DNA of 64,000 nt, taken from positions 1,689-65,688 of the forward strand of contig CAYYOI010000001.1 in the NCBI GenBank assembly GCA_964473285.1. Reading direction: 5' to 3'. Positions 29,510 through 50,075 of this stretch are shown piece by piece. Each line of letters begins with the position of its first letter. Position 1 is the stretch's first letter. A program made the position numbers and the translations under genes. The stretch is from an uncultured Methanosarcinales archaeon (GTDB taxonomy: Archaea; Nanobdellota; Nanobdellia; Woesearchaeales; JACJVW01). Under the pieces are notes generated by a model that worked only from the letters and a program-made list of their open reading frames with translations, searched no databases and was not told the DNA's origin.

Positions 29510-29559
29510 CTCTTAGCTTTATCGGGAACAAAAGTAAGACAACTAGCCTGGATGAATCA

Positions 29560-31485: not shown

Positions 31486-31557
31486 ATGTTCCATGAGATT
31501 CTCCTCGCATTATTGGTCGGTGTGGCTTCCGGGGTAATTACAGGTTTCTGGTTCTAA
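31486..31557 (+). pseudogene. 23-codon relic N-terminal fragment homologous to the start of the TctA-like gene at 47106. Putative displaced target-gene 5' end at the element junction.
   Basis: Translation 'MFHEILLALLVGVASGVITGFWF*' versus 'MFFEILLAIIIGVNAGIITGLTP' at 47106. About 65% nt identity over 66 nt. Confidence 0.5.
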
Positions 31558-31582
31558 GATTTTCTTGATTAATTCTAAATAG

Positions 31583-32098
31583 TTGAAATGTGGACACATC
31601 AAGGCTACAAGCCATATATGTATGTTTGGATATCAAAGAAATAAGATGGTATCCAAAATAAGAGATAAAGGGCAACTTGTCAGCATTTTTGATAAAGTTC
31701 AAAGGATCGAAAAGGATCTGAACCAGCTTTTGCCAGAAATGGATCGATCCAGGTTGATCAAAGCAATGTCTAAATGCAGACAGCATTACGAAGGTAAATT
31801 GTACTATGGCAGAAGAACATATGATCCTGAAGAGATCAAGAAAAGACCAAAATTAGAATTATCCGAGATTGAAAAGATCATCTATCATTATTTGATTGAG
31901 AACGACTTAAATCCTTCCACAACGTACAGATGGTTCTTAGCTACACGATTACCTTCAGATATCAAAGAACGTCTTTCTAATAGAGAAATACCTGTAAAGT
32001 TAGCCATGAGTATAGCTGCAAATAGAAGAAGGATCAGAGTTTCGAATCAAGGGCTTCTCATGATGGATGAGATGGTCAATATCATTGGAGGACTATAA
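31583..32098 (+). CDS. Hypothetical protein immediately upstream of, and overlapping, the integrase. The start is uncertain.
   Basis: ORF only. Basic, and its position is like an excisionase/regulator slot. Confidence 0.35.
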   Translation: MKCGHIKATSHICMFGYQRNKMVSKIRDKGQLVSIFDKVQRIEKDLNQLLPEMDRSRLIKAMSKCRQHYEGKLYYGRRTYDPEEIKKRPKLELSEIEKIIYHYLIENDLNPSTTYRWFLATRLPSDIKERLSNREIPVKLAMSIAANRRRIRVSNQGLLMMDEMVNIIGGL

Positions 32099-33137
32099 GA
32101 TGGATCATGAAATAATCAAAGAAGTGTTAGACATCACTAAAGAAGAAAGGATGTCTCGGAAAGCAATTTATGAGCAATTGCTATCAAGAGGATCTCTTAA
32201 GCCAGGAGAAGAAGAACTCTTTAACATAGTCATTGACAGAGCATTAGAAAACGAATTAATCCCTTCAAATAGAATTAGGATTTACAAAAAAGCAAGAGGT
32301 AAATTGCCAACGGTTTTCACAACAGAGCAATTAGGCTTTATTTTTGAGAATTGTAATAGACCTAAACTTGCAGTTGTCATGTGGTTTGGTTTCTTCTGTG
32401 GTTTAAGAATAAGAGAGGTCTGTAATCTTAAAATTTCAGATGTAGATTTAGATAGGAGAAAATTATTTGTCAGAGACAGTAAGAACCCACTTAGAGGAAA
32501 ACAAGGATATGGGAAAGATCGAGTGGTCAGCATCCCTCAAGTAGCAATAACTCCATTAAAGAGATGGATGGATGTCATCAAAGGAGGAGAATGGTTTATT
32601 CCAAGCATGCAAGATCCAAACAGACCTATACGAACAAAGACAATTCATGAACAGTTTAGATTTTTACTCAAAAAAGTAGGCTTGTCTGAAAAAGAGTATG
32701 AAAAAGGTTTTGTGCAAAAGAATCATGGAAAGCATAAACCAATGGTTAAATCTGTTTACAAATACAGGTTTCACACTCTTAGACACACTTATGCGACCTA
32801 CCTTCTTGAAAAAGGAGTTCCAATAGAGAATATTCAAAGATCATTAGGGCATAAAGACCTTGATACAACATTAATCTACGCACGTATTTCTGATAAGAAA
32901 ACTACTGAATATATCGATGATGCATTCAACAGACCACTCAAATTAGTCAATAAGGAAAGCATTCTCAATGAGAATAAACCAGTACAACAGACTAATTACA
33001 ACATCAACAACACAGCCAATGTTTTGGCTGTCAATAATAACACTCCTATATCAATATTGCAGAAAAGACTTGCAATGGGAGAAATAGATCTCGTAACATA
33101 CGAGCATCTATGTAAAACACTAAACGGAGGAAAATAA
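32067..33137 (+). CDS. Tyrosine site-specific recombinase (phage-integrase family)
   Basis: Catalytic residues in 'FFCGLRIREV' (Arg), 'HTLRHTYATYL' (HxxR) and 'LGHKDLDTTLIYARI' (His...Tyr). Confidence 0.85.
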   Translation: MRWSISLEDYKMDHEIIKEVLDITKEERMSRKAIYEQLLSRGSLKPGEEELFNIVIDRALENELIPSNRIRIYKKARGKLPTVFTTEQLGFIFENCNRPKLAVVMWFGFFCGLRIREVCNLKISDVDLDRRKLFVRDSKNPLRGKQGYGKDRVVSIPQVAITPLKRWMDVIKGGEWFIPSMQDPNRPIRTKTIHEQFRFLLKKVGLSEKEYEKGFVQKNHGKHKPMVKSVYKYRFHTLRHTYATYLLEKGVPIENIQRSLGHKDLDTTLIYARISDKKTTEYIDDAFNRPLKLVNKESILNENKPVQQTNYNINNTANVLAVNNNTPISILQKRLAMGEIDLVTYEHLCKTLNGGK

Positions 33138-33141
33138 GAAA

Positions 33142-33459
33142 ATGGAAACAAAACAAGAATTAGAACAAAATGTTACAACAAACGACTTAATCAACATGTG
33201 TGAATTAATCATACAGTTGGCAAAGAGGGAAGATGCAAAGACAAATGCTAAGAATATCCTGGCAGAGAAAGTTTATGAAGGCTGTCAAGATCTCTTTAAG
33301 CTTGCTTGTCCTAACTGTGGCAATGTGCAGAAGTCCCCTCTTGATTTTAGAGCATTTACTGAGGACTTAACTCTTGAAGATGAAGATAAACTTTCATGTC
33401 CTAAGTGCAATAAGGATCTTGGTGTTAAGTTAAAATATTCTGTTTATACGAGTTGTTAA
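33142..33459 (+). CDS. Small zinc-ribbon protein
   Basis: 'CPNCGNVQKSP...CPKCNKDL'. Confidence 0.45.
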   Translation: METKQELEQNVTTNDLINMCELIIQLAKREDAKTNAKNILAEKVYEGCQDLFKLACPNCGNVQKSPLDFRAFTEDLTLEDEDKLSCPKCNKDLGVKLKYSVYTSC

Positions 33460-33470
33460 AACTCGTACTT

Positions 33471-36400
33471 TTATTTTTTCTTCTTTCTTTGACTGTCTTT
33501 TCTATTGAGAATAAAGTAAGTTGCTGCTGCAATTATTAGAATAAATACCCCTATTCCTATGATATAAGGTATTATTGGTATTTTCTTTTGTGATGCATCA
33601 AGAGATTGATTTATTTCTTTGTTTTCTTCAGTTGTGTTCTTAATTTGCTCTTCCTGAATCATTAGTTCTTGTTTTGTAATATTCTCTTCAATTGCTTTGT
33701 CTTCTGTTATGTCTTCTTTTTCTTCTTCTCCTGTTATTGCAAAGTAACTGAATCCTGGCGTGTTTGCTGTGTACGTTGTGATTTTTGTGTTTGAACTCTT
33801 TAGTGTTGTTTCTAATTCAGTCCATGTGTTGTTTGTATATCTGAGCAATAAGATTGTGTTTTTGTTGATTTTGTTCTCTTTTATCCATGTGTTGTTGATT
33901 GTGAATTCTATTTCTGCTCCTTCTATTTCGTCATCATTGATATTTTTGGGATTGATCTCTAAGAATTGATACGTTTTCTTGTTGATTTTCTTTGTTGTCG
34001 GAGGCTCTTTGATGTTTTTAACTTCTATTCCTACACTTGATTTGTTTTCTTTTGCTGTAAGTCTTATCTTGCTTATGCTGATATTTTCTCTTGCTATTTC
34101 AAAATCTGATGGGCTTCCTGCTTTGATTTGGCTCACATACTTTGTTTGTGAGTTTTGATCAACTGTTGGAATGTATCCTCCAGTGCTTGATGAACTGCTT
34201 CCCCCTGATGATCCTCCATTGTTATCAGGTGGTGCTGTATAGGTCAATGATTTATTATTGTGATTATTGCTTAATGAGAGGTTCTTGTTTCCTGCTTCAT
34301 CTATGCTTGTGATGGCAAAATAGTATGTTTTTGAGCTGGTTATTGTGAATGTCGTGCTGTTTGTCGTTGTATTCTTTAAGAATGTCAGTGTTTCATTGAC
34401 ATAATCCTTGCTTGTATTGATGCTGTTTGCATACCATACCTGGTAAGTTGTTATTGTGTCAGTCATGTTATCTATGTCTTTTGTGATGTTTTCCCATTGG
34501 ATTGTTGCTGTATTGCCTGATTGAGTGATAACTATGTTTGATGGATTTTGAGGTTTTACTGTATCATTTGCAGTTATGTTATGAACTTCTGAATTGTTTT
34601 GATAATTGTAGTTTCCGAGTTGATCAACTGCAATTATAGAATACCAATAAGTCGTGTCATGCTCTACTTCTGCATCAAAATAATGGTTGTTTGTAGTGTT
34701 TGCAATCCATAAATTGCTCTTGATCTCAGTAAAGTTTGAAGTATTCTTGAATATCATGTATTTGTTTGCATCATTTACTTCTGACCATGTTATGTTTATG
34801 AATCCGTTTGGAGTTGCAGTCAAGTTATTTGCTGTGAATACTGGAGGAATAGGTGCTGTTGTGTCTATTATGAAGAAAAGTGTTGTTGAAGTTGTGCTGT
34901 CCTGGTTAATACTGTTTTCACAAGCAATACTCCAATTATGAGTTCCATCAGTTAAGTTATTGATTGATCTATTGGTTTCTTCTTCGCTATTGATGAGTAT
35001 ATTTGTTTGGTTTGTGGTTGCATCCAGGTTTAATGAGCAGTTTAAAGTGTCGTTGTTTTGATCAGTTGAGCTAAATGTAAATTGTATTGTATTATTTGAT
35101 GAGTTTGTGTTGTTTCCTGGTGCATTTAGAGTGATTATCGGAGAGCAGTATTGTCCCCATGAACCTTCATAATAATAATTACCTATTCCATTCTCGCAAA
35201 AGCTTATTCCTGTCAATGCTCCTCCGCTGGAATCTTTATTTAGATCAATTGATGGATTGTAAAATGAGTTATTGTATAGTTTCACATTACTTCCTATTGA
35301 GTTGTCGTTTATTGTCAAATTATTGTATAACTTGTTGTTGTAGATGCTAACGTTGTTTCTTGGATAGATCGTATAGCTTGGCATCATATCTGCATTGTCT
35401 TTTGAAGAATAAAGAGTGTTATCTTTTATCGTGATGTTTTCATGAATTGCATCTGATCCCATATTTCCCCAATAAATTAAGTCTCCTGAAACATTGAAGA
35501 TGTTATTGATGAGTTCGAAGTTTCTTGACAGCCTGTATATTCCTGTGATTGTTGGTCTTGCAGGGAAATGTGAATAGAATGAGTTGTTTTCTATTTGTAC
35601 CTGGAAGCCTGGCATGAAAGTTCCTGAAGATACTGCTTCTCCATAACTGATCCCTCTTGTGAAGTTTGTGAAGTTGTTATTTAGTATGTTCACTTCTTCT
35701 GTACCTTTGTCAATGTATAACGCTACATCAAAATTATAGGCATTACAGTTCCTAATAGTGACATTTGAAACAGTGTTTGAATATCCTATGTATGCAAAGG
35801 TTTTCCCATTATCTATATGTCCTGGATCTATGATTTTATTGTTACAATCAAGAAACACATTGCTTGTTGAAATGTTAAACAGTATTGTTTCTGCTCCTGT
35901 GAAGTTATACGTGCATAAACTATCTAATGTTAGTGATTTTGTCAGATCATATCCATTTGATAAATCAATGCAATCAATATTTAGAGGTCTTTGTTCTGAA
36001 AATCCTGTGTTACCAAGTGAATCAGTACAGCTGATACTCCAGTTATAGTTTCCTAAAGCGATATTAACTGTGATATTTGTCTCTTCTCCTGTATTTGCAG
36101 TAATTCCTGTTTGATTTACCAGGTTATTTATTGAGAGGTTGCAGGTTGTTGTTTGATCAAGGTCTTGTGTTTGAAAAGAGAATGTGACTGATTGGTTTAG
36201 TTGATAATGATCATGTCCAGGACTTAGTAAAGTGATTACTGGTTTTGCTTCATCTGTAATTGAATACAATGTTTGTCCTACTGTGAAAAGGATTGATCCA
36301 TTGATGATTGAGATGTCTGAAGGATTATATGATCCTCCAAAAGAGTACTCTCTTTCTATTGATCCATTGCTTGCATTGATCATGTACAGCTTCTTATTTC

Positions 36401-37448
36401 CTCCAATTAAGACATATTCTCCTGCTATTGAAGGATTGCTTGATGCAGAATTATCAACTGAAAGATTCCAAATCTTTACTCCTGATGAAGAATTTAGAGC
36501 ATAAAGCATGCCATCCCCACTTACATAAACAATGTTGTCCTTTGCGACTGCTGAAGATGAAAAGCCTCCAAAACCATTCGTTACAGTATAATTCCAAATC
36601 TTTGCTCCAGTATTTAAATTAAGTGCATGAAATGATTCAGTAAGACTTCCAGATCCTCCGATGCCAACAAAGATCTTACTATCATAATACAGTGGAGATG
36701 AGTAAGATATTGCTCCATTAAGTGTGGTATTCCATATTTCTGTCCCATCTGATATGTTTACTGCGTATGTTGTGTTATCTGCACTTGAAAAATAAATGAT
36801 TCCTTCATGAAGAGCTGGAGCAGTTGAAATATAGTTGTTTGCTGAAAAGTTCCAAATCATTGATCCGTCAGTATCATTTAAGGCATAAAGATATGATTCT
36901 TTTTGATCAGGCGTTCCTCTATAAACTCCTGTACCAAAGATCACATAATCATCATAGATTAAAGGAGCAGAATACATCATAGTAAATCCACTCGAATTAT
37001 AGTAAGGTGTGAAGTTCCATCTTTGACTTTGATCTGAAGCTTGTATAGAAATCAGATAAGGAATGTTTCCATCTACTGGAATGTAAAGATTTCCTTGTGA
37101 ATATGCCGGGTTAGAAACTATTTGATTGGGAGTATCATAAGTCCAAAGTATTGATCCATTTGAAGTATTGATTGCATAGACCTTGCTGTTTTCTGTTCCT
37201 AAATAAGCTATTCCTTGATTAATCAAAGGAGAAGTAAACGTTCCAGTAATCCCATCTAATGTGGTAAGGTTCTCTAAGCCATAATCTGAAAGATTAATCT
37301 CTCCTGGATAAACTCTGTTGTTATCAAGTGTTCTTCCCCACATGATCCATTCATCTGAAGAAGTGCTGTTTGAGTCTGCAAGAACAAATGTGCAGTTGAT
37401 CAGCAAGAAAATTGCTAAAGCTATGAATTTATATTTTAAAACCCCCAT
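33471..37448 (-). CDS. Large secreted, C-terminally anchored surface protein. It has PQQ-like beta-propeller repeats, a right-handed beta-helix (pectin-lyase-like) region and Fn3/Ig-like domains, and is rich in N-glycosylation sequons.
   Basis: Signal peptide. PQQ repeats 'YAINTSNGSILWTYDT', 'YALNDTDGSMIWNFS', 'YAVNISDGTEIWNTT', 'YALNSSSGVKIWNLS'. 'IRNCNAYNFDVALYIDKGTEEVNILNNNF' is beta-helix-like. C-terminal TM plus 'RKDSQRKKKK'. Confidence 0.75.
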   Translation of the reverse strand: MGVLKYKFIALAIFLLINCTFVLADSNSTSSDEWIMWGRTLDNNRVYPGEINLSDYGLENLTTLDGITGTFTSPLINQGIAYLGTENSKVYAINTSNGSILWTYDTPNQIVSNPAYSQGNLYIPVDGNIPYLISIQASDQSQRWNFTPYYNSSGFTMMYSAPLIYDDYVIFGTGVYRGTPDQKESYLYALNDTDGSMIWNFSANNYISTAPALHEGIIYFSSADNTTYAVNISDGTEIWNTTLNGAISYSSPLYYDSKIFVGIGGSGSLTESFHALNLNTGAKIWNYTVTNGFGGFSSSAVAKDNIVYVSGDGMLYALNSSSGVKIWNLSVDNSASSNPSIAGEYVLIGGNKKLYMINASNGSIEREYSFGGSYNPSDISIINGSILFTVGQTLYSITDEAKPVITLLSPGHDHYQLNQSVTFSFQTQDLDQTTTCNLSINNLVNQTGITANTGEETNITVNIALGNYNWSISCTDSLGNTGFSEQRPLNIDCIDLSNGYDLTKSLTLDSLCTYNFTGAETILFNISTSNVFLDCNNKIIDPGHIDNGKTFAYIGYSNTVSNVTIRNCNAYNFDVALYIDKGTEEVNILNNNFTNFTRGISYGEAVSSGTFMPGFQVQIENNSFYSHFPARPTITGIYRLSRNFELINNIFNVSGDLIYWGNMGSDAIHENITIKDNTLYSSKDNADMMPSYTIYPRNNVSIYNNKLYNNLTINDNSIGSNVKLYNNSFYNPSIDLNKDSSGGALTGISFCENGIGNYYYEGSWGQYCSPIITLNAPGNNTNSSNNTIQFTFSSTDQNNDTLNCSLNLDATTNQTNILINSEEETNRSINNLTDGTHNWSIACENSINQDSTTSTTLFFIIDTTAPIPPVFTANNLTATPNGFINITWSEVNDANKYMIFKNTSNFTEIKSNLWIANTTNNHYFDAEVEHDTTYWYSIIAVDQLGNYNYQNNSEVHNITANDTVKPQNPSNIVITQSGNTATIQWENITKDIDNMTDTITTYQVWYANSINTSKDYVNETLTFLKNTTTNSTTFTITSSKTYYFAITSIDEAGNKNLSLSNNHNNKSLTYTAPPDNNGGSSGGSSSSSTGGYIPTVDQNSQTKYVSQIKAGSPSDFEIARENISISKIRLTAKENKSSVGIEVKNIKEPPTTKKINKKTYQFLEINPKNINDDEIEGAEIEFTINNTWIKENKINKNTILLLRYTNNTWTELETTLKSSNTKITTYTANTPGFSYFAITGEEEKEDITEDKAIEENITKQELMIQEEQIKNTTEENKEINQSLDASQKKIPIIPYIIGIGVFILIIAAATYFILNRKDSQRKKKK

Positions 37449-37681
37449 AATTTAATTAAATTATTAAGCACACATATAAATTTTACTAGAAATAGCCTGA
37501 AAATACCAAATTCTCCACTGAAATCAATATCCTTTCAAAAATTCTAACAAAAAAGCCAGGCTATTTGATGCAAATATCTGTTACAAAAACATAGGTTCAA
37601 AATCAAGCCTTCTTTTTTAAAGAATTTTGTATGATCTTCTTGTTACAAAAAGACCTGTTTTAGAAACATTTAATAAAATCT

Positions 37682-39634: not shown

Positions 39635-39843
39635 GTCGATTTCGACATTTTCGACATAAGTGAGTCACACTTATTTTTCATTGTTGAGCCACCTATAAGT
39701 GATTCTTTAAACGCTTCAACTATTAGAGTTACACTCTTCTCCCTACGGGAGAAGCCCATCCAATAATCTTTCAAAATCAAGCTTATTTTCTTCATTTTTT
39801 GCCTTTTTTCTCATCCCTACACACGCACACATATCGGCACAAA

Positions 39844-40272: not shown

Positions 40273-40274
40273 CT

Positions 40275-40739
40275 TTATGCCTCCAATACTTCTCTTACAA
40301 ATTCTTTGTTTAGTGCGATTAGTCTTCTTTTGCCAAATTTGTGAAGCTTGATTATTTCGCTGTCTTGCAATCCTTGAATTGCTCGTTCAAGAATTTGATC
40401 AGTCTTCAATAGTGGAAGTTTCTTTAAGAACTCTTCTTCAAACAGTATTCCTTCGTTTGCTAAGAGTTCTTTAAACAAGATCCATTCGTATTGATCATAA
40501 ATTGTGAGCATGTCATCAGGTTTGAAATGATTCAGAACCACTTCTGAAATGATCTGACGTTGTGCAATCACATCTAATTCTATCAAGAATGATTCGAACT
40601 CATCAGGAACTTCTCGCTCCCATTCAATCTCTTTTCCATCAAGGTACTCTGGCTTTGTCAATCCCATAAAAGTTTTGAATGTTTCAATTAGTTGCATTAT
40701 TATCATCCTCCTTTTCATCCTTAATAGTGTTAGATTCAA
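40275..40739 (-). CDS. Hypothetical protein
   Basis: ORF only. Confidence 0.35.
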   Translation of the reverse strand: MNLTLLRMKRRMIIMQLIETFKTFMGLTKPEYLDGKEIEWEREVPDEFESFLIELDVIAQRQIISEVVLNHFKPDDMLTIYDQYEWILFKELLANEGILFEEEFLKKLPLLKTDQILERAIQGLQDSEIIKLHKFGKRRLIALNKEFVREVLEA

Positions 40740-40921
40740 GTACGATAATGTTTACTTTTGCATCAGTTAATGCAGCTAATCTCGCATTCCTCACACTATA
40801 ATCAACAAAGAACTTAGTAACAACTCCTTCAATTCCTAAAGCTTCAGCTATTTCAGAGATCCTGACTTCATGTCTGACTTCTTGAGTTGCTCTCGTATTC
40901 ATTTTTGTTCTAACACTTTAT

Positions 40922-41146
40922 TTATACTGCCTCTTCTGAGACAGTTTCTTCAGTCACTGTTGATGTTGCTTTCTTCTTGTTCTTCCATAAAACGCCAACA
41001 TCACGTAACTTATCATTGATGTTCACAAATACTTTGAAGTGTGGTTGATTGCCTTCTCTGTTTTCATTTGGTAAAATCAAAATCTCTTTTTCTCCCAAAA
41101 CTCCAAAGTTCATGTTTCCTTTCAGATACTCTTCTCCTTCTTGCAT
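40922..41146 (-). CDS. Small hypothetical protein
   Basis: ORF only. It sits upstream of the primase-MCM gene in the same orientation. Confidence 0.3.
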   Translation of the reverse strand: MQEGEEYLKGNMNFGVLGEKEILILPNENREGNQPHFKVFVNINDKLRDVGVLWKNKKKATSTVTEETVSEEAV

Positions 41147-41182
41147 GTTTATCTCCTCCTTCCTTTTTGATTAAGGAATATA

Positions 41183-44100
41183 TCATTTCAAAACCTTCCA
41201 TTTTCCATGCTTAGGCTCAAAGATTTTTCCAATTTTAGATAATCTTGAGATCTCTCTTTCTACCTCTTCTTCGTTCATCTGACTTTTTTCTACAATTACT
41301 TCAAAAGGAGTGCCATCTCCAGGATCGTTTTTATTAATTATATCTGAAAAATCAAAAACACATTCTTCCTCAATAATTGCAAAACCCCTATCATTTATAC
41401 ATCTTAAAATCAATGCTTTTGCTTCATTCACATCCAATAAACTAGGTTTCTCTGCCAATCTTAACTTAGCACTTGCTTCTGTAAGTCTTATTACAGAAAG
41501 AATAAATCGAGAGAAGCTTTGTATGTGATTATGTTCAATAAAACTTCTTTGATTTTTACAAAACTGTCTTATTGAATTTTCTACATCTTCAGGTGTGGGT
41601 TTAAGCTCGTGCTTATTCAAAACATAATAAATATACTTTCTAAGAAAATCTTTATTTCCAATATTTTCTCCTTTATAATTATCGAGTATTTTGGAAATTA
41701 TTTTATCATCTTGTGGTTTTTCAGCCTTAAGTATTAAATCAAATCTATCAAATATGTGTTTATTTATGCCTAATGACTTATGATCTACTCGATCTCTTTC
41801 TTCTTTTATGTTTCCAGCACACAAAATCTTTGCGGGTGCTTTCATTTGTTGCTGTATGTTTGCTTTGCTTATCGTAACTGTCTTCTTTTCAAGAGGTTCT
41901 CCTAATTTATCTATGTCATCCTCTTTTGCTTTGTCTACTTCATCTATGAAACACAATCCTTGACCTGCTAAGACTACTGCTCCTGCATCTAGTGCCCACC
42001 CACCTAGAAATTCATCTCTTACTACAGATGCAGTTATTCCTACTGCTGAACTTTTTGTGGATTCAACAAATACTGATTTTGGTGCAATATCGCATGCTTC
42101 TAGTGCTAAATGAGATTTGCCAAGTCCCCAACCTCCAAATATGTAAATATTTAATGATTTTCTAGTGTTAATATTTTTATTGATGTTTTCATTAGTTACC
42201 AACTGCAATAATAATGCTTTTTTAATGTGAATATTTCCCTCAACGTGTGGTGCAAATATATTTGATAAATTGGTCAATACATCATTATTTTTTGAAAATG
42301 AAAAAATATCTTCCGTATCCTTTATCGAGAGATTAATTCTTCTATCGTCTATGGGGTATATGTTGTTTATGTCTAGAATAATTTCACTTTTTGTCAGCCT
42401 TTGTCCTGTTCTTGAAAATATTGGATCTTCTTTTATTATACCTATTGATCTAACTCTATTTCCTGCTTGTAATATTATTTGATCATTACATAGATTTCCT
42501 CTAATTAAAGCATGTATTTTTTTTACTTCTATTAGATTAGTATTAGATGAGATGTCTTCAATAATTAATGACTGTACATCAATCATCTCTTTATTTATTA
42601 AATGAAATTTTCCTTTTCTTCCACAAGCACACATAGATGGTTCTTTGAATTTCTTATCTAATTGAAGTACATTTATTATGTTGCCACAACTAGGACATTC
42701 AAATTTGGCAGAGGTTGTTTGTGGTCTTACATCTGATTTTTGCCTGATTGTACCATCTATATAGCACAATTTTCCAATATGTTTAGTTCGGATGTTGCCG
42801 ATAAAGAGTTCAGAGGAATTAGGCAAATCACTAAATCTAAAAGGAATATCCTTTCTCTCTTTATCTATTAATTCTACAGACATTTGAAATATCTTTAACA
42901 TCTCTTCAGGATTATCTAATAAGGCATCTGCTAATTCAGGACTATATCTATAAAAATCCTTAAAATTAATTATAACAGAATCTTCTTTTTTTCCATTATA
43001 AAGAAGATTGTTTTCTTCCAAAAACTCTTTTATAAGATTAATTCTTTCTCCAATCTCATAATGTTTATATTTGGTTTTTTGTTCTTGTTCTTCTTTTTGT
43101 TTTAAATCAGAAATTATTATATTTACCTCTTTCTCCCCTTCATTTGTTAAACCCCAAATATCAACATTATTAACTCCTTGAGATTTAATTTCTATTAATT
43201 CTTCAGAAGAAAGACCTGTGGATCGACCATTTCTTTTCCTTTCTATAGCTCTTGAAATAGTATTAAGTGGAAGATTTAATTTTTTTGAAATATCAGATAT
43301 TGATAATTCTGATTCATATAAACATAATAATATTTTTTCTTTAGTGGGTAAGTTGGGTAAGTTGGGTAAGTTGGGTAAGTTGGGTAAGTTGGGTAAGTTG
43401 GTAAGTGGGTAAGTATGTTTTAATTTATGGGTAACTTGCATATTTCCTGTTCTATCCTCAGAATTAGCCCGATTTGAAACATCAGGATACCCAAGATACC
43501 CATTTTTTGATTTTAATACATACTTTTTTTCTTTGAATATTTTTTCAATTTCTATTTTTTCAATTTTGGTTTTTTCATGGATATTTTGGATATAACTTTG
43601 TGAAGTTAATTCATCAGCATAAACTAGTAAATCAAGAATTTCTTTTATCTTAGAAGTTTTTTCAATTGGATCTGATGGAATTCTCTCGATTAATAAGTCA
43701 ATCAAATGTTTAGAATTAGTTAATAATTGATTCACTAATTCTTTTGCCTCATCAACACTTTTTTTTGCCACATATTCATTAATATCTATTTTGTCTTTAT
43801 TTTCTTCTTTTGGAAGTTCACATAAACGAATATTAGTCACTTTGTTTGTGAATAAGAATTTTGCAGTTTCTAAAGCACCTTCTTCTCCTGCTTTGTTGTC
43901 TTCGTTGTCGTTGATGATATAGACTTTTTTTAGGTTTTTAACTAGTTGTAATAGTTTTGCATGATCTTTTTTTCTAAATTGAACAGTGACTGGACTTATT
44001 GAGCTGAATCCTGATTGTATTAGGCTAATGCAGTCCGTAACTCCTTCTGTAATAATAGTATAATCTTTATTTAAGGTGTCTTCTCCATAGAAGTATTTGT

Positions 44101-44881
44101 TTTCAACAACTTTACTTATGTAAGGTCTTTTTTCATTTGGGCTGAATTGTTTTTTATACTTACTTTCTTCATATTTGTTATTTGGTGTGTTTTCTGTTTT
44201 TCTTGCAATAAACCTAACTACTTTGTTGTGTTTTAGGTAAGGATATATGATTCTACCTTTAAAAATAGGAATTATTGTATCTTGATATGCTGTAAAAAGT
44301 CCTGTTTTTAGTATATCTTCTCTTTGGTACTTGTTCAACAAATATGGGATTATTCTATTTTCCGTATCTGCATAGCCTATTAGAAGTCTATCAACTGTTT
44401 CATCAGTAAACCCTCTGATTCCTTTTTCAAACTCACGAATTGTATTACTTTTTATTTTATATTCATCAATATGTTTATGATAGAACTCTGCTATGTCTTT
44501 TTGAATATTAAAAACAAGCATTTCTTCTTCTTTTTCTTTTTTTAGTTCAGCAATCTTTTCCTTGCTTAGTTTTTTGAGTGGAACACCTGTCTTTTCAGAT
44601 AATATGTTTAAAGCTGTTGGGAAATCACAATTCTCACTAATCATGACAAGGTCAAAAATATCTCCTCCTTTACTTGCAGGACATCCTGCACTAAAACAAA
44701 TAAAGCCTTGATTGTCATAAGAAATGAAGCTATTTTTGTTCTTACTATTGTGAAACTTACACTCTCCTTGATATCGATCACCTAAGTGTTTCAGATGTAT
44801 TCCATAATCTGAAGCAAGATCTGAAATCTTTATCTTACTCTTGATTTCATTCTTTATCACTTCAAAATCAAAAGATTCCAT
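41183..44881 (-). CDS. Replication protein: a DnaG-type primase (zf-CHC2 + TOPRIM) fused through an (LPN)n linker and an HTH to an MCM-family AAA+ helicase
   Basis: zf-CHC2 'CKFHNSKNKNSFISYDNQGFICFSAGCPASKGGDIFDLV'. TOPRIM 'YTIITEGVTDCISL' and 'YIINDNEDNKAGEEG'. MCM zinc finger 'CPSCGN...CACGRKGKF'. Walker A 'IFGGWGLGKSH'. Walker B 'CFIDEVDKA'. MCM arginine-finger 'IFDRFDLIL'. Confidence 0.75.
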   Translation of the reverse strand: MESFDFEVIKNEIKSKIKISDLASDYGIHLKHLGDRYQGECKFHNSKNKNSFISYDNQGFICFSAGCPASKGGDIFDLVMISENCDFPTALNILSEKTGVPLKKLSKEKIAELKKEKEEEMLVFNIQKDIAEFYHKHIDEYKIKSNTIREFEKGIRGFTDETVDRLLIGYADTENRIIPYLLNKYQREDILKTGLFTAYQDTIIPIFKGRIIYPYLKHNKVVRFIARKTENTPNNKYEESKYKKQFSPNEKRPYISKVVENKYFYGEDTLNKDYTIITEGVTDCISLIQSGFSSISPVTVQFRKKDHAKLLQLVKNLKKVYIINDNEDNKAGEEGALETAKFLFTNKVTNIRLCELPKEENKDKIDINEYVAKKSVDEAKELVNQLLTNSKHLIDLLIERIPSDPIEKTSKIKEILDLLVYADELTSQSYIQNIHEKTKIEKIEIEKIFKEKKYVLKSKNGYLGYPDVSNRANSEDRTGNMQVTHKLKHTYPLTNLPNLPNLPNLPNLPNLPTKEKILLCLYESELSISDISKKLNLPLNTISRAIERKRNGRSTGLSSEELIEIKSQGVNNVDIWGLTNEGEKEVNIIISDLKQKEEQEQKTKYKHYEIGERINLIKEFLEENNLLYNGKKEDSVIINFKDFYRYSPELADALLDNPEEMLKIFQMSVELIDKERKDIPFRFSDLPNSSELFIGNIRTKHIGKLCYIDGTIRQKSDVRPQTTSAKFECPSCGNIINVLQLDKKFKEPSMCACGRKGKFHLINKEMIDVQSLIIEDISSNTNLIEVKKIHALIRGNLCNDQIILQAGNRVRSIGIIKEDPIFSRTGQRLTKSEIILDINNIYPIDDRRINLSIKDTEDIFSFSKNNDVLTNLSNIFAPHVEGNIHIKKALLLQLVTNENINKNINTRKSLNIYIFGGWGLGKSHLALEACDIAPKSVFVESTKSSAVGITASVVRDEFLGGWALDAGAVVLAGQGLCFIDEVDKAKEDDIDKLGEPLEKKTVTISKANIQQQMKAPAKILCAGNIKEERDRVDHKSLGINKHIFDRFDLILKAEKPQDDKIISKILDNYKGENIGNKDFLRKYIYYVLNKHELKPTPEDVENSIRQFCKNQRSFIEHNHIQSFSRFILSVIRLTEASAKLRLAEKPSLLDVNEAKALILRCINDRGFAIIEEECVFDFSDIINKNDPGDGTPFEVIVEKSQMNEEEVEREISRLSKIGKIFEPKHGKWKVLK
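43346..43414 (-). repeat. In-frame 9-nt tandem repeat encoding (LPN)n in the linker of the primase-MCM protein
   Basis: Plus strand 'gggtaagtt' x6 followed by degenerate units. Protein 'LTNLPNLPNLPNLPNLPNLPT'. Confidence 0.85.
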
Positions 44882-45081
44882 CAGAACTCACCTCTAATAG
44901 GATTTATAGTTAAGATTCCAGAAATAGATATGAGAATTTCTTGATCGAATTTATCTTTAATTGTTATTGACTCTTCAGAAATACTAATGATCATGCCAGT
45001 GTATCTGATCCTTGCATCTGGTTTTAGAAAGATTTTGACCTTAGTTCTTTCATTCATGTATTGTTTAAGTGTTTCTTTCAT
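44881..45081 (-). CDS. Small hypothetical protein
   Basis: ORF only. Its stop overlaps the primase-MCM start. Confidence 0.3.
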   Translation of the reverse strand: MKETLKQYMNERTKVKIFLKPDARIRYTGMIISISEESITIKDKFDQEILISISGILTINPIRGEF

Positions 45082-45111
45082 TCTTTCAATCGCCCCTTTT
45101 CAAATTGTTGT

Positions 45112-45339
45112 TTAACTTCCTAATGTTCTCAATCTATACTGATTGAGGTTGTGCTTGAAAGTTGCAGTCAGAGTATCTAATTCTCTAAGTAGCATACTTA
45201 AGCGTTCAAAATCATCGAATTTAGTGTGATCGCTTGTATTCTGCATTCTCCAAAGTAGTTTTCTCATCTCCTCATGCTTGTTTTTGCATGCGGTCGAGTA
45301 GTACCTGGATGCATCGTTATGATCTCTGAATTCTTTCAT
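45112..45339 (-). CDS. Small hypothetical protein
   Basis: ORF only. Confidence 0.3.
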   Translation of the reverse strand: MKEFRDHNDASRYYSTACKNKHEEMRKLLWRMQNTSDHTKFDDFERLSMLLRELDTLTATFKHNLNQYRLRTLGS

Positions 45340-45625
45340 TTTGATTTCTCTTTGATTTGATTAAATGGAGATTTGCCTGGAAATGAGGATTGCAACCCCA
45401 GGTAATCTCCAAATAACAACAAAAACAATGAAAATGAGTTTTGCCTACAATGGCTATTTTCTCACGACACCTTTGAGCCAATTCTTTGCAGTTCTGTTTG
45501 ATTCTGGTCGATTTTCTATGTCCCAGTGCCTCTTCCTACAAAGATCGCTACAAAATCTTGCAGAAGCGTAATAATGCTCTGATATTTTTCCTCCACAAAA
45601 CCTGCATTTGTTAATGTTTGTCAAA

Positions 45626-45766
45626 TTATTTGACCTCCAATACTAATTTTGATCCTGATCTTTGGATGATCACACTCCTAGCATCACCCACCCAATCCAA
45701 AGGTAATTTTACGAATTTTGAATAACTACCGATTGTTTGGATTTTCTCGATAATTTCTTCATTCAT
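45626..45766 (-). CDS. 46-aa AbrB/MazE/SpoVT-like small protein. It is below the ORF-track size cutoff and was found by manual translation.
   Basis: Translation 'MNEEIIEKIQTIGSYSKFVKLPLDWVGDARSVIIQRSGSKLVLEVK'. The ATG overlaps the stop of the RHH gene (ATGA-type coupling). Confidence 0.4.
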   Translation of the reverse strand: MNEEIIEKIQTIGSYSKFVKLPLDWVGDARSVIIQRSGSKLVLEVK

Positions 45767-45962
45767 GATTTGCAACCTCTTTTCTTTCGAGCAAATCTTT
45801 AATCTCGTTTAATCTTTGAATTACCAGGAGTTGATTGTCTAGAAGCCTTGATCTGGAAAAATCTGAGACTGAACCATATCCGAGCATACCAGCTATTTGC
45901 TCAATTTTTTCCTTTTCTTCTTTGCTCACTCGAATCCGAATGAGATGATTTTTAGGCTTCAT
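45759..45962 (-). CDS. Ribbon-helix-helix (CopG/Arc/MetJ-like) protein
   Basis: 'IRIRVSKEEKEKIEQIAGMLGYGSVSDFSRSRLLD'. Confidence 0.6.
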   Translation of the reverse strand: MKPKNHLIRIRVSKEEKEKIEQIAGMLGYGSVSDFSRSRLLDNQLLVIQRLNEIKDLLERKEVANHE

Positions 45963-46173
45963 TTTGGCTCAAGTATCGTGTTAGGGCTTGACGACAGATT
46001 GTAGCTTGAGAGGTAAGACTAGCTTTTGCTAAAAGCTCTAATTTTTCTTTACAATTCTCATCAACTACAAACGTAATCACACGATTTTTATTCATAATAA
46101 ATAATTTCGAATAAGAGCATATAAAAAAATCGAGAAGAGAAAAAATAGATAGAACAAAAATACTCCAAACCAT
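45952..46173 (-). CDS. Ribbon-helix-helix-like small DNA-binding protein
   Basis: 'RVITFVVDENCKEKLELLAKASLTSQATICRQALTRYL'. Confidence 0.5.
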   Translation of the reverse strand: MVWSIFVLSIFSLLDFFICSYSKLFIMNKNRVITFVVDENCKEKLELLAKASLTSQATICRQALTRYLSQNEA

Positions 46174-46259
46174 TTCATAGAAAAAATATTATTCAGAAAT
46201 TACTTAAATCTTACAAAATATTACAAACATTTATATATGGGTGTATATCTAAACTAATT

Positions 46260-46877
46260 ATGAAAGATAAATACTTACCTTTACTTAGTATAGATGTTGC
46301 AATTATGTGTGGTGTTCTATCTTCTATAAATTCATCAGTATCTTCAGCCGGATGTAAAAGAGCAACTGTGATAAAATGGCTTCAGGAAGATGAAAATTTT
46401 AAATCTGTTTATCTTGATAGCAAAAAAACGAGACAGTCGCAAAAGAAAATTAAAGATGACTCATTTAGAGTGTATCTTTATGATAAAATAAATGCCTTTA
46501 TCAAAAATAATAAGGAATACTTTGAATTTCTTGACGATCAAATTCTTCCTAATTACCAAAATCTTTATGCAATATGTTTTGAAGATAAAAGAAAAAAAAC
46601 TAAGAAAACAATTGAGGAGTTGGAGAAACCAATTAGAGAACGGATGATAAAACTTTTGGAAAAACAGTTTGGTAACGAAGAACTAAGAAAAAAAGGCGAA
46701 CTAAAATATTATTCAAATAAACAAAATAAAGATTTTAACAACTACATATCATTTATAGACCGACAAAAATGTATTAGAAACTTAAAGAAGCTTAGACTAC
46801 TTCATGTGAAGGATCAAGAAGGGGTGGAGATAATAAAACAGACAATCAAGCTATTATCACCCAAACAGACAAAATAA
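46260..46877 (+). CDS. Hypothetical Lys-rich protein
   Basis: ORF only. Confidence 0.35.
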   Translation: MKDKYLPLLSIDVAIMCGVLSSINSSVSSAGCKRATVIKWLQEDENFKSVYLDSKKTRQSQKKIKDDSFRVYLYDKINAFIKNNKEYFEFLDDQILPNYQNLYAICFEDKRKKTKKTIEELEKPIRERMIKLLEKQFGNEELRKKGELKYYSNKQNKDFNNYISFIDRQKCIRNLKKLRLLHVKDQEGVEIIKQTIKLLSPKQTK

Positions 46878-47105
46878 AGGTAAATTTATTCCGGGTGTTC
46901 AACTAAACAAAGAAAATTATATAAAGAACCTACCACATAACAAAAAATAAGCATCCAAACAGAATACTGGTTTGGTGTCTTGATAACGTTCCGGGAATGC
47001 ATTAAATTTTCGGCATGTGTTTATAAAAAAACCTTTCAGAATTGATCGGAAATCTTTCGAACGAGAAGGCGTGAAACTTATAAATTTCGAGGATATAAGC
47101 GTTTT

Positions 47106-50071: not shown

Positions 50072-50075
50072 AAAA

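What the first reader, a model, noticed from the sequence alone, without database searches (positions are those of the whole stretch)
31486..47105. About 15.6-kb AT-rich integrated element carrying two recombinases, its own replicase and a surface-protein cargo
A contiguous block contains a tyrosine integrase, a small serine recombinase and a primase-MCM replicase. It also holds RHH and AbrB-like small regulators and many orphan ORFs. Its base composition is visibly more AT-rich than the flanking housekeeping genes, and gene 37682..38950 is especially AT-rich. The combination looks like an integrated archaeal plasmid or provirus. Having both a Tyr and a Ser recombinase suggests either a composite, nested insertion or a resolvase/invertase function inside the element.
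Basis: partly seen in the sequence, partly recalled or inferred. Interest (0 to 1): 0.6.

Follow-up and report, generated by a model that had tools for sequence, protein, structure and literature searches.

The report
Integrated archaeal plasmid inside tctA
A 15.6-kb plasmid-like mobile element sits in the start of a transporter gene (tctA) of a Woesearchaeota (DPANN) archaeon; it keeps that gene whole by supplying its own copy of the gene's start, and it encodes an unusual replication protein that joins a bacterial-type (DnaG) primase to an archaeal-type MCM helicase.

Summary
Window ~31,545-47,164 is a 15.6-kb block of 32.5% GC in a 40.8% GC Woesearchaeota chromosome. It encodes a tyrosine integrase, a small serine recombinase, a DnaG-type primase::MCM fusion, two RHH proteins, a 1,325-aa surface protein and several orphan ORFs.

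A related Woesearchaeota genome (L002, ~86% nt identity in the flanks) has the empty site. The ends are a 61-nt imperfect direct repeat of the tctA 5' end. Two other Woesearchaeota genomes (L013, L014) carry 85-93% identical integrases, preceded by the same conserved 150-aa gene, at the same tctA position. Their cargo differs, and L013 has a different replicase.

The element is therefore a site-specific integrative element, most likely plasmid-like. It replaces the tctA promoter and first 19 codons with its own copy.

No protein in 1.84 billion representatives, or in the plasmid and phage collections, joins the two halves of the replicase. The closest primase relatives carry an SF3 helicase instead of MCM. 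The fusion is therefore probably a helicase-module swap, though one of its junctions rests on this assembly alone.

The role of the serine recombinase is unresolved. I found no invertible segment and no nested att sites. An AbrB-like regulator was not confirmed.

The parts
31485..31545 (+). attL: the left copy of the 61-nt imperfect direct repeat. It is the host's original tctA start; the crossover core is about 31537-31546 (TTACAGGTTT).
   Evidence: Local alignment with 47105-47165 scores 37, against 20.3+-2.5 (maximum 30) for shuffles. The sequence to the right of ACAGGYTTCT is conserved in L013 and L014. The sequence to the left is host-specific.
31487..31558 (+). Displaced host tctA stub: 23 codons (MFHEILLALLVGVASGVITGFWF*), preceded by the host promoter region. 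It now points into the orf150-int genes.
   Evidence: Read directly from the sequence. Equivalent stubs occur in L013 (MLNILIAIIIGILAGVITGFYP*) and L014 (MFLEIIVAIACGVASGVFTGFWF*).
31646..32098 (+). orf150: a conserved partner of the integrase (the mechanical ORF starts at 31583). It is all-helical and may be a DNA-binding or directionality factor.
   Evidence: 85-88% identical and in the same position in L013 and L014. No family hit. AF2 single-sequence model pLDDT 67, helical; no Foldseek match better than E=2.
32100..33137 (+). Tyrosine integrase (Xer-like), intact. The mechanical ORF starts at 32067.
   Evidence: PF00589 3e-25. Best NCBIfam hit is XerA_Arch, below its cut-off. R114, H236-x-x-R239, H262 and Y271 are present. 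The NCBI protein MFP4423642.1 is 345 aa.
33142..33459 (+). 105-aa zinc-ribbon protein, part of the integration module in the window and in L014.
   Evidence: Weak zinc-ribbon hits. 77% identical homologue directly after the integrase in L014.
33471..37448 (-). Cargo: a 1,325-aa secreted, membrane-anchored surface protein (signal peptide, PQQ-like beta-propeller, Ig-like repeats, PGF-pre-PGF domain, C-terminal TM helix).
   Evidence: PQQ_2 4e-30. PGF_pre_PGF 1.3e-27. 67 N-glycosylation sequons. The C-terminal 540 aa are 75% identical to a 1,245-aa protein in L014, which has a different N-terminal part and the opposite orientation.
37682..38950 (+). orf422: an orphan gene with GC 28% and unknown function.
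   Evidence: Only a self-hit in 5.8 billion clusters. No Pfam, PHROG, PADLOC or NCBIfam hit. AF2 pLDDT 37, unusable.
38942..39634 (-). Small serine recombinase with N-terminal catalytic domain and C-terminal HTH (resolvase/invertase layout). The likely start is 39586.
   Evidence: PF00239 1.2e-26 over aa 26-171. The catalytic-site motif YARCST is at aa 29-34. The Logan gene call is 214 aa.
39844..40739 (-). orf142 and orf154: conserved accessory genes of the replication module.
   Evidence: Homologues (29-33% identity) lie in the same order downstream of the primase-SF3 helicase gene in L008.
40684..41146 (-). orf72 and orf74: small ORFs between the replicase gene and orf154.
   Evidence: Called as genes on the independent Logan contig L007. 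No significant family hit.
41183..44881 (-). Replicase of 1,232 aa. DnaG-type primase (aa 1-457; 43511-44881), NLP tripeptide-repeat linker (aa 495-512; 9-bp repeat at 43345-43407), then wHTH + MCM helicase (aa ~513-1232).
   Evidence: Domain hits. Primase Toprim residues conserved among relatives: E279, D325, E327. MCM Zn finger, Walker A/B, sensors and Arg finger intact. GC3 is uniform across the three parts at 0.18-0.21. No other protein covers both halves.
44881..45339 (-). orf66 and orf75: small ORFs upstream of the replicase gene.
   Evidence: Called as genes on Logan contig L001. No family hit.
45759..46173 (-). Two ribbon-helix-helix regulators (one NikA-like, one CopG-like) at the head of the leftward replication operon.
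   Evidence: PF21983 2.2e-7 and PF01402 0.0025. A 48% identical NikA-like homologue lies in the L013 element.
46260..46877 (+). orf205: an orphan gene with GC 28.5%.
   Evidence: No family hit. Called as a gene on L001.
46878..47165 (+). Element P arm and attR. It holds an element-borne upstream region with a TATA-like TTATAAAT at 47078-47085, plus the first 19 tctA-like codons. The repeat is 47105-47165 and the core is about 47157-47166.
   Evidence: Homology to the empty-site genome L002 starts only at 47160. Alignment of the three att sequences. The independent contig L001 spans this junction at 100% identity. The promoter assignment is inference.
47106..48287 (+). Hybrid tctA gene: codons 1-19 from the element, the rest from the host. 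The reading frame is intact.
   Evidence: PF01970 4.5e-45 over aa 6-381. 89% identical to L002 TctA over aa 3-392. The geometry of conservative site-specific recombination assigns the 5' part to the element (inference).

Best explanation
Window ~31,545-47,164 is an integrated, probably still mobile, plasmid-like element of a Woesearchaeota (DPANN) archaeon.

Integration. The Xer-like tyrosine integrase, always found with a conserved 150-aa helical protein, recombined a circular form of the element with the 5' end of the host tctA gene. The core is about 8-10 bp (ACAGGTYT, codons 18-20). The element carries its own tctA-like first 19 codons and upstream region on one arm of attP. Insertion therefore leaves a complete tctA that now starts with element DNA.

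Promoter swap (inferred). The host's original promoter and first 19 codons are displaced 15.6 kb to the left. There they form a 23-codon stub that reads into orf150-int. In the circular form the element's own tctA-like leader would sit in front of orf150-int.

Replication (inferred from domains). Episomal replication is driven by one polypeptide that joins a DnaG-type primase to a wHTH-MCM helicase. It is flanked by RHH regulators and by conserved accessory genes (orf154, orf142). This protein most likely arose when an MGE-type wHTH-MCM replaced the SF3 helicase module of a DnaG-primase-SF3 replicase.

Other genes (inferred). The small serine recombinase most likely resolves multimers. The 1,325-aa surface protein and the orphan orf422 are cargo.
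For: Shown:
- An abrupt GC drop, with no overlap of 1-kb windows between element and flanks.
- An empty site in L002, with synteny on both sides. Homology ends at 31354 and resumes at 47160.
- A 61-nt imperfect direct repeat of the tctA start at both ends, about 6.8 SD above shuffles.
- Three independent attL junctions (window, L013, L014). Each has host-specific tctA codons to the left of ACAGGYTTCT and a conserved element arm, orf150 and integrase (85-93% identity) to the right. Cargo differs downstream; L013 has an AEP prim-pol-like replicase, and L014's contig ends before any replicase.
- Intact integrase catalytic residues.
- The right junction and the cargo block are reproduced at 100% identity by independent Logan contigs L001 and L007.
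- L008 carries a 65% identical primase domain fused to an SF3 helicase, followed by orf154 and orf142 homologues.
- Stand-alone wHTH-MCM relatives sit in MGE-like contexts. They share a tripeptide tandem repeat just before the wHTH, as the window protein does.
- All MCM and Toprim motifs are intact and GC3 is uniform across the fusion.
- No capsid, terminase or conjugation gene was detected.
Against: - No circular or excised form and no attP were observed. No reads were available.
- The two repeat copies are only ~70% identical, so the exact crossover is inferred from where conservation switches.
- No second attR was seen; the right ends of the L013 and L014 elements lie outside the fetched DNA. 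The element origin of the 5' tctA codons therefore rests on recombination geometry and on the loss of L002 homology at 47160.
- L002's own first 19 codons match neither copy well.
- The orf74-to-MCM junction (41172/41173) exists only in this assembly. The Logan contigs of sample SRR11308339 break at 33150, 41172 and 43371, which are module boundaries. The exact 1,232-aa protein is absent from the 15-billion-protein collection, although its neighbours from the same NCBI contig are present.
- Many small ORFs are orphans, so virion proteins could be hidden among them.
- No res site or other substrate was found for the serine recombinase.
Confidence: 0.7

Rival explanations
1. It is a provirus. 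The large membrane-anchored glycoprotein would be a virion spike or receptor-binding protein, and some of the orphan ORFs would be unrecognised capsid or membrane proteins.
For: About half of the ORFs have no detectable family. MCM is a common sole replication protein of small archaeal viruses (PMC4889955). MCM-half relatives include virus records such as an Altiarchaeum virus and haloarchaeal tailed viruses. The surface protein keeps its C-terminal anchor region but has a different N-terminal part in L014, as receptor-binding proteins often do.
Against: No capsid, portal, terminase, packaging ATPase or other virion hallmark in Pfam, PHROGs or NCBIfam. No relative in IMG/VR for the integrase or the replicase. 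The sister element in L013 carries defence-type genes (RloB, AAA_15, DUF3800) in place of the surface protein, so that protein is not a conserved structural gene.
Confidence: 0.15
2. It is a composite. The serine recombinase, with or without orf422 and the surface-protein gene, is a separately acquired or nested mobile cassette, or a DNA invertase that flips the cargo segment. On this reading it is not a backbone resolvase.
For: GC3 is mosaic: orf422, the primase-MCM gene and orf205 are at ~0.2, while the int module, surface protein, serine recombinase and orf142/154 are at 0.29-0.39. No serine recombinase homologue was found in L008, L013 or L014. The surface-protein gene has the opposite orientation relative to int-zn105 in L014. 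The best NCBIfam hit of the catalytic domain is the IS607 transposase, but it is below the cut-off.
Against: No inverted repeats bound 33460-38950 or any sub-segment. The best pair was 13/16 nt, which is chance level for AT-rich DNA. No direct repeats bracket the recombinase or orf422. The recombinase has the resolvase layout, without the N-terminal MerR-type HTH of IS607 TnpA. It is co-oriented with the replication operon and close to it. The fetched parts of L013 and L014 are incomplete, so its absence there is weak evidence.
Confidence: 0.2
3. The primase::MCM fusion, and perhaps other module joins, is an assembly chimera of co-occurring related elements. In reality the primase would continue into an SF3 helicase or another domain.
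For: Independent Logan contigs of the same sample stop exactly at both sides of the MCM segment (41172 and 43371) and at the int-module boundary (33150). The fused protein is a singleton in every database searched. At least two >=90% identical integrase variants exist in Logan assemblies.
Against: - The break at 43371/43372 is explained by the 57-nt perfect 9-bp repeat, which is longer than a typical assembly k-mer (k=31 assumed here, not given by any output). L001 starts at the first 31-mer (43372-43402) that extends beyond that repeat.
- L001 carries the primase ORF open through the first 3.5 NLP units. Such tripeptide repeats mark the N-termini of the wHTH-MCM family and not the primase-SF3 proteins.
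- The reading frame is kept for 1,232 codons.
- GC3 of the primase, linker and MCM parts is the same (0.18-0.21), unlike the neighbouring genes at 0.35-0.41.
- The order helicase, small ORFs, orf154, orf142 matches L008.
Confidence: 0.15
4. The element is a fixed, decaying relic that no longer excises.
For: The repeats are only ~70% identical. The sister integrase in L013 appears frameshifted. Degenerate tctA stubs in L003 and L014 show that elements at this site do decay.
Against: All long ORFs here are open, and the catalytic motifs of the integrase, serine recombinase, primase and MCM are intact. The element is absent from a genome whose flanks are ~86% identical. The low repeat identity is expected if the element carries a foreign tctA-like arm.
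Confidence: 0.2

Closest known systems
Cryptic integrated elements and integrative plasmids of archaea. Examples are the thaumarchaeal CIEs (PMC6563490) and the MCM-encoding integrated elements of Methanococcales and Thermococcales (Krupovic et al. 2010, cited in PMC4889955; my own knowledge for the details).
   Same: A tyrosine-integrase-mediated, site-specific insertion bounded by direct repeats. It has plasmid-type replication genes including MCM, no virion or conjugation genes, many orphan genes and lower GC than the host.
   Different: The host is a DPANN (Woesearchaeota) archaeon. The target is the 5' end of a protein-coding gene; all 14 thaumarchaeal gene targets were 3'-distal (PMC6563490). 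The replicase is a DnaG-primase::MCM fusion rather than a stand-alone MCM or primpol-SF3. There is no detectable sequence relative in PLSDB or GenBank phage records beyond the MCM domain at 23-30% identity.
SXT/R391 integrative conjugative elements, which insert into the 5' end of prfC (Hochhut and Waldor 1999; my own knowledge, not checked here).
   Same: Integration into the 5' coding end of a host gene, with the element providing a new promoter and new N-terminal codons so that the gene stays functional.
   Different: SXT/R391 are bacterial, conjugative and ~100 kb, with an unrelated integrase. Here there are no conjugation genes, and the promoter function of the P arm is only inferred.
Primase-helicase fusion replicases: T7 gp4 (DnaG-like primase + DnaB-type SF4), DnaG-primase + D5_N/SF3 'P4-family' proteins (e.g. 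P0001, P0040, P0074), and the Bacillus cereus prophage BcMCM (AEP primase + MCM; PMC3273815).
   Same: One polypeptide combines primer synthesis with a hexameric replicative helicase, with the primase N-terminal. The primase domain is 65% identical to that of a DnaG-SF3 protein (P0001). SF3 and MCM are both AAA+ 3'-5' helicases, so the swap keeps the polarity (established knowledge).
   Different: I did not find the combination of a DnaG/Toprim primase with MCM (SF6) anywhere else. The 2016 survey of dsDNA-virus replication proteins reports SF6 helicases fused to AEP primases and states that DnaG-like primases are confined to bacteriophages (PMC4889955).

Membership tests
Site-specific integrated mobile element (integrase-mediated) | Element present in one genome and precisely absent from a syntenic relative (empty site) | tested here: met
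   L002 has the DUF4870 gene, the 243-aa gene and tctA adjacent. The window-only segment is 31355-47159.
Site-specific integrated mobile element (integrase-mediated) | Direct repeats (attL/attR) at the two ends derived from the target | tested here: met
   A 61-nt repeat of the tctA 5' end, ~70% identical, with score 37 against a shuffle maximum of 30. The identical core is only ~6-10 nt.
Site-specific integrated mobile element (integrase-mediated) | The same integrase family uses the same target in independent genomes | tested here: met
   L013 (integrase 85% identical) and L014 (93%) have tctA stubs joined to the same element arm at ACAGGYTTCT.
Site-specific integrated mobile element (integrase-mediated) | Excised circular form / attP detectable | not testable with these tools
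   No read data. Pattern scans for the element arm in IMG/VR and JGI metagenomes gave only chance matches.
Tyrosine recombinase (Phage_integrase, Xer-like) | Catalytic domain with R..HxxR..H/W..Y | tested here: met
   PF00589 3e-25 covering profile positions 5-170 of 172. R114, H236, R239, H262 and Y271 are present.
SSV-type (type I) archaeal integrase | attP lies inside the int gene, so int is split on integration | tested here: not met
   The int gene is intact (345/356 aa) and lies ~550 nt inside the element. The att core is upstream of orf150.
Cellular XerA (NF040815) | Score above the curated equivalog cut-off | tested here: not met
   105.6 bits against a cut-off of 220. The gene lies within the mobile block.
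Small serine recombinase (resolvase/invertase) | N-terminal catalytic domain with the active-site serine motif, plus a C-terminal HTH | tested here: met
   PF00239 1.2e-26 over aa 26-171. The YARCST motif is at aa 29-34 and a ~55-aa basic C-terminal tail follows. The HTH itself is inferred, not hit by a model.
Small serine recombinase (resolvase/invertase) | Cognate res site or inverted crossover sites flanking an invertible segment | tested here: not met
   No inverted repeat above chance level around 33.4-39.9 kb. res sites are too degenerate to rule out.
IS607-family transposase | N-terminal MerR-like HTH before the catalytic domain, and a score above the cut-off | tested here: not met
   65 bits against a cut-off of 110. 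The match covers only profile positions 48-179, with no N-terminal HTH.
MCM (SF6 AAA+) helicase | MCM_N/OB with Zn finger, Walker A/B, sensor 1, Arg finger, sensor 2 and lid | tested here: met
   PF00493 4e-46, plus MCM_OB, MCM_lid and MCM_N. All motifs align with 11 relatives. Helicase activity was not tested.
DnaG-type (Toprim) primase | CHC2 zinc ribbon, DnaG_N catalytic core and Toprim acidic residues | tested here: met
   PF01807 3.7e-13, PF08275 5.7e-9, PF13155 3.7e-5, and TIGR01391 3.7e-47, which is below its cut-off. E279, D283, D325 and E327 are invariant among the four closest relatives.
Provirus | Capsid, packaging or other virion hallmark genes | tested here: not met
   None in Pfam, PHROGs or NCBIfam. 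Sensitivity for archaeal virus proteins is low, so this is weak negative evidence.
Integrative conjugative element | VirB4/TraG-type ATPases, a relaxase or mating-pore genes | tested here: not met
   Only a NikA-like RHH protein was found. There is no relaxase or ATPase.

The most novel reading that the evidence does not exclude
The 1,232-aa protein is a genuine, functional one-polypeptide replicase of a combination not described before: a bacterial-type DnaG/Toprim primase fused through a tripeptide-repeat linker to an archaeal-type wHTH-MCM helicase. It would have been created by swapping the SF3 helicase of a DnaG-SF3 replicase for an MGE-borne MCM. It belongs to a modular family of Woesearchaeota integrative elements that share one integration module. 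That module targets codons 18-20 of tctA and exchanges promoters and N-terminal codons with the host gene at each integration. As a result the tctA 5' end is a recombination hot spot used by at least two element families.
Probability: 0.55. Interest if true: 0.6.

Novelty: new variant of a known kind. Interest (0 to 1): 0.5.

Why it matters
Mobile elements of DPANN archaea are barely charted. This locus gives a defined family with an empty site, three occupied sites, a mapped ~10-bp core and exchangeable replication modules.

The 5'-end target with replacement of the gene's start is unusual for archaeal elements. It offers a simple PCR and read-mapping assay for excision.

If the DnaG::MCM fusion is real, it shows that primase and helicase modules from the 'bacterial' and 'archaeal' replication toolkits can be recombined freely in mobile elements. 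It would also give a compact enzyme for studying how a DnaG primase works with a 3'-5' AAA+ helicase.

The element-borne, domain-swapped giant surface proteins could affect how these episymbiotic cells attach to partner cells. This last point is speculative.

Tried and rejected
- tRNA target: no tRNA or tmRNA gene in the window and no Rfam family. The element does not use a tRNA gene.
- Long exact att repeats: none found with seed 10. The repeat is imperfect and was found by reading the sequence and aligning it.
- Invertible-segment idea, prompted by the opposite orientation of the surface gene in L014: no bounding inverted repeats.
- Horizontally transferred tctA 5' end, judged from 28/29 identical residues with L003: rejected as evidence. 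The N-terminus is conserved across the family and the DNA is only 73% identical.
- Close relatives in IMG/VR (integrase, replicase): none. JGI metagenome scan with a primase alignment: none.
- attP-arm pattern scans: 1 viral and 37 metagenome matches. None has integrase or orf150 homologues, so they are chance matches.
- Look-ups of the MCM-side partial gene product, to find the missing Logan contig: not found. This is uninformative, because the known partial product of L001 is also absent from the collection.
- Exact look-ups of orf154 and the serine recombinase failed because the called starts differ.
- AF2 on orf422: pLDDT 37, unusable. orf150 model: no structural match.
- PADLOC: no defence system. 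Only the primase domain hits DnaG-like parts of DRT models.
- Iterons or an origin: no convincing repeat array outside the coding 9-bp repeat.
- AbrB-like regulator: not detected.

Full report
**1. Observation**

The window averages about 41% GC, but from ~31.4 to 47.1 kb it drops to about 32%. Taking the element as 31549-47159, its GC is 32.45% and the remaining 48.4 kb is 40.76%. The fifteen 1-kb windows inside the element (maximum 0.359) do not overlap the 47 outside (minimum 0.360; Mann-Whitney p=7e-9). The lowest-GC 15.6-kb block of the whole window starts at 31401.

- A tyrosine integrase (PF00589, 3e-25).
- A small serine recombinase (PF00239, 1.2e-26).
- A 1,232-aa protein with a DnaG zinc ribbon, DnaG_N and Toprim, followed by a winged helix and a complete MCM (N, OB, P-loop, lid).
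- A NikA-like RHH protein and a CopG-like RHH protein.
- A 1,325-aa protein with a PQQ-like beta-propeller and a PGF-pre-PGF domain. It has a signal-peptide-like N-terminus, 67 N-X-S/T sequons and a C-terminal membrane anchor.

Three points need correction. The primase is of the bacterial DnaG type. No AbrB-like protein was detected. orf422 (GC 28%) is not uniquely AT-rich, because the replicase gene and orf205 are the same.

**2. Host and empty site**

The window's own proteins are in NCBI as a 'Candidatus Woesearchaeota archaeon' MAG on a 77,232-bp contig (integrase MFP4423642.1, orf422 MFP4423639.1, TctA MFP4423628.1).

A scan of species-representative genomes with TctA found L002 (JAWOGQ010000017.1, Ca. 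Woesearchaeota), whose TctA is 89% identical. blastn shows synteny at 83-88% identity for window 19031-31354 and 47160-54582. In L002 the DUF4870 gene, a 243-aa membrane-protein gene and tctA are directly adjacent. Window 31355-47159 takes the place of 114 bp in L002.

The flanks hold ordinary chromosomal genes, such as seryl-tRNA synthetase and a HerA-like ATPase.

**3. Ends of the element**

At 31487 there is a 23-codon ORF, MFHEILLALLVGVASGVITGFWF*, that copies the start of TctA (MFFEILLAIIIGVNAGIITGLTPG...). The two copies, 31485-31545 and 47105-47165, align over 61 nt at about 70% identity. The score is 37, against 20.3+-2.5 and a maximum of 30 for shuffles. The copies diverge immediately after ACAGGT(T/C)T.

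The integrase has close relatives. I read the contigs of the 93% (L014, JAIPJP010000033.1) and 85% (L013, JBMXIL010000004.1) relatives, both from Woesearchaeota MAGs. In each, a host-specific tctA stub (MLNILIAIIIGILAGVITGFYP* and MFLEIIVAIACGVASGVFTGFWF*) runs into the same sequence: ACAGGYTTCT....CTRAGATTTTCTTRATTARTTCT. An 85-88% identical orf150 and the integrase follow.

So in three genomes the sequence left of the core varies with the host and the sequence right of it is conserved with the element. This is what attL = B-O-P' predicts. It places the crossover at about 31537-31546 and 47157-47166, in codons 18-20 of tctA.

By the geometry of conservative site-specific recombination, the sequence left of the core at attR must come from the element. 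That is 46878-47164, including a TATA-like TTATAAAT at 47078-47085 and the first 19 codons. Consistent with this, homology to L002 begins only at 47160. tctA is thus a hybrid gene with an intact frame (PF01970 over aa 6-381).

The displaced host promoter and stub now read towards orf150-int. In a circular form the element's tctA-like leader would occupy that place. This 'promoter swap' is inferred, not shown.

**4. A modular family**

L014 shares orf150, the integrase and the zinc-ribbon gene. It also shares the C-terminal 540 aa (75% identity) of a large surface protein, but with a different N-terminal part and the opposite orientation.

L013 shares orf150, the integrase and a NikA-like RHH protein (48% identity). 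It carries RloB, AAA_15 and DUF3800 genes and an AEP prim-pol-like replicase with PF27228 instead.

L008 (Logan, another sample) has a 65% identical DnaG-primase domain fused to a D5_N/DUF5906 SF3 helicase. Homologues of orf154 and orf142 follow it in the same order as in the window. Integration, replication and cargo modules are therefore exchanged among these elements.

Within the window element GC3 is mosaic. It is ~0.2 for orf422, the replicase gene, orf205 and one RHH gene, and 0.29-0.41 for the rest.

**5. The replicase**

A word-indexed search of 5.8 billion clusters found no protein covering both halves. So did an exhaustive phmmer search of 1.84 billion representatives, run with aa 1-1199. 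The top hits cover either aa 1-457 (P0001 65%, P0002 60%, P0121 47%) or aa ~450/484-1170 (P0122 43%, P0123 38%, P0124 36%). A fused relative, even one weakly similar in both halves, should have ranked among the 150 listed (all >=244 bits).

In PLSDB and the GenBank phage collection only the MCM half matches, at 23-30% identity, to archaeal plasmid and virus MCMs. The 2016 survey of dsDNA-virus replication proteins describes SF6 helicases fused to AEP primases and states that DnaG-like primases are confined to bacteriophages (PMC4889955). The known primase-MCM fusion, BcMCM, has an AEP primase (PMC3273815).

All catalytic motifs are present:
- The primase Toprim residues E279, D283, D325 and E327 are invariant among its relatives.
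- The MCM part has the Zn finger, Walker A (GGWGLGKS, aa 916), Walker B (IDEVDK, aa 979), sensor 1, the Arg finger (DRFDL, aa 1045) and sensor 2.

Stand-alone relatives of the MCM half lie in MGE-like contexts, with an integrase, RHH proteins or ParB nearby. They carry a tripeptide tandem repeat (SPK, TLT, LTQ, LPK and others) just before the winged helix. The window protein has NLPx6 at aa 495-512 in the same place. The primase-SF3 proteins lack such a repeat.

The most economical history is that a wHTH-MCM module, with its repeat, replaced the SF3 helicase of a DnaG-SF3 replicase. The junction would lie within aa ~457-494. Both helicases are AAA+ 3'-5' translocases (established knowledge), so the swap is mechanistically conservative.

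**6. Is the fusion an assembly artefact?**

Logan contigs of sample SRR11308339 match the window at 100% identity. L007 covers 33151-41172 and L001 covers 43372-52125. They confirm the cargo block, the right half and the attR junction.

They also stop at both sides of the MCM segment and at the end of the int module. The 43371/43372 break is explained by the 57-nt perfect 9-bp repeat (43345-43401). L001 begins at the first 31-mer that reaches beyond that repeat, as expected if the assembly k-mer is 31 (assumed, not given by any output). The breaks at 33150 and 41172 have no in-window repeat. They probably reflect co-occurring variants; other >=90% identical integrases exist in Logan assemblies.

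Four points favour the fusion:
- L001 carries the primase ORF open into the first 3.5 NLP units, a feature of the MCM family.
- The frame is kept for 1,232 codons.
- GC3 is uniform across the primase, linker and MCM parts (0.206, 0.182, 0.191) and differs from the neighbouring genes.
- The gene order after the helicase matches L008.

Against it, the orf74-to-MCM join is seen only in this assembly. The exact protein is also not in the 15-billion-sequence collection, although its neighbours are. I put the chimera at about 15%.

**7. The two recombinases**

The tyrosine integrase is clearly the integration enzyme, because the same module sits at the same target in three genomes.

The serine recombinase has the resolvase/invertase layout. 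Its catalytic domain covers aa 26-171, it has the YARCST motif and it ends in a basic C-terminal tail. It lacks the N-terminal HTH of IS607 transposases, its best but sub-threshold NCBIfam hit. It is co-oriented with the replication operon and close to it.

I found no inverted repeats that could bound an invertible segment, and no second pair of direct repeats. It has no homologue in the fetched parts of L008, L013 or L014.

Multimer resolution is the default inference. A separately acquired module remains possible.

**8. Plasmid or virus**

No capsid, portal, terminase, packaging ATPase or conjugation gene was detected. Nothing related is in IMG/VR. The large surface protein is replaced by defence-type genes in L013. 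I therefore class the element with the 'cryptic integrated elements' and integrative plasmids of archaea (PMC6563490). The usual caveat applies: archaeal virion proteins are hard to recognise.

In that thaumarchaeal survey all 14 protein-gene targets were 3'-distal. A 5'-end target with replacement of the gene's start is closer in logic to SXT/R391 at prfC (my own knowledge).

**9. Verdict**

It is a site-specific integrative, plasmid-like element of a Woesearchaeota archaeon, inserted in the 5' end of tctA.

As a kind of thing it is known. The new elements are the host group, the target and the way the gene is repaired, the demonstrable modularity of the family and, if the assembly holds, a DnaG::MCM replicase not found anywhere else. 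I rate it a new variant of a known kind, with interest 0.5.

Noticed in passing
L003:8597-10001 (CAYMIF010000008.1, labelled Methanosarcinales MAG): A second tctA 5' stub (MLLEILIAITIGIFAGIITGLTQGISVKL...) lies 1.3 kb upstream of the intact tctA. Two ORFs separate them: a 201-aa HTH/nucleotidyltransferase-like ORF and a 196-aa ORF with a weak HEPN hit. It looks like the remnant of another tctA-targeting insertion, or a very small one.
   Followed up: partly
L014:2250-2310: A degenerate, frameshifted tctA stub lies 300 bp upstream of the functional attL. Its continuation (..CAAAGGATTAGCGTAAAA..) resembles the L003 stub rather than the window element's arm. This suggests successive integrations by a second element family at the same site.
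   Followed up: partly
window:28339-30177: A 1.84-kb segment is present in the window but absent from the syntenic L002. It carries a 391-aa ORF and a 145-aa ORF; neither was scanned against any family library, and CBS-domain-like and PEBP-like are only my reading of their sequences. GC is host-like (0.41-0.44).
   Followed up: no
window:48275-49509: Two overlapping ORFs (224 and 200 aa) immediately downstream of tctA are absent from L002. By eye they look like a glycosyltransferase-2-type gene split by a frameshift (DxD-like motifs). There is no Pfam or NCBIfam hit. GC is 0.36-0.37.
   Followed up: partly
window:30624-31354 (stop at ~30738): The homologue of the 243-aa membrane-protein gene of L002 has TAG where L002 has TGG. 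Only a 167-aa ORF from 30851 remains, so the gene is either a pseudogene or affected by a sequence error.
   Followed up: no
window:11111-24172 (- strand): A single 4,353-aa ORF with two DUF2341 domains, a giant surface-type protein typical of DPANN genomes. Part of it is syntenic with L002.
   Followed up: no
P0123, P0124, P0125, P0136, P0186, P0210, P0212, P0233, P0246 (N-terminal 25-110 aa): Mobile-element wHTH-MCM proteins share a short tripeptide tandem repeat (SPK, TLT, LTQ, LPK, NTN, PTV and others) just upstream of the winged helix. The repeat sequence varies but its position is conserved. Its function is unknown.
   Followed up: partly
window:33150/33151, 41172/41173, 43371/43372: Independent Logan contigs of SRR11308339 end at module boundaries of the element (end of the int module, and both sides of the MCM segment). 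This hints that several related elements sharing modules coexist in that sample.
   Followed up: partly
L023, L029, L030, L039 (JGI Ga0315274/289/285/291): The 20-nt arm pattern occurs twice, exactly 4,973 bp apart, in four contigs from related samples. These contigs have no integrase or orf150 homologues, so this is an unrelated ~5-kb direct repeat or tandem element.
   Followed up: no
L013:9931-10978: The 85% identical integrase of the L013 element aligns in two frames (aa 12-52 and aa 51-355). This is an apparent frameshift, so that copy may be inactive or the contig may carry an error.
   Followed up: no
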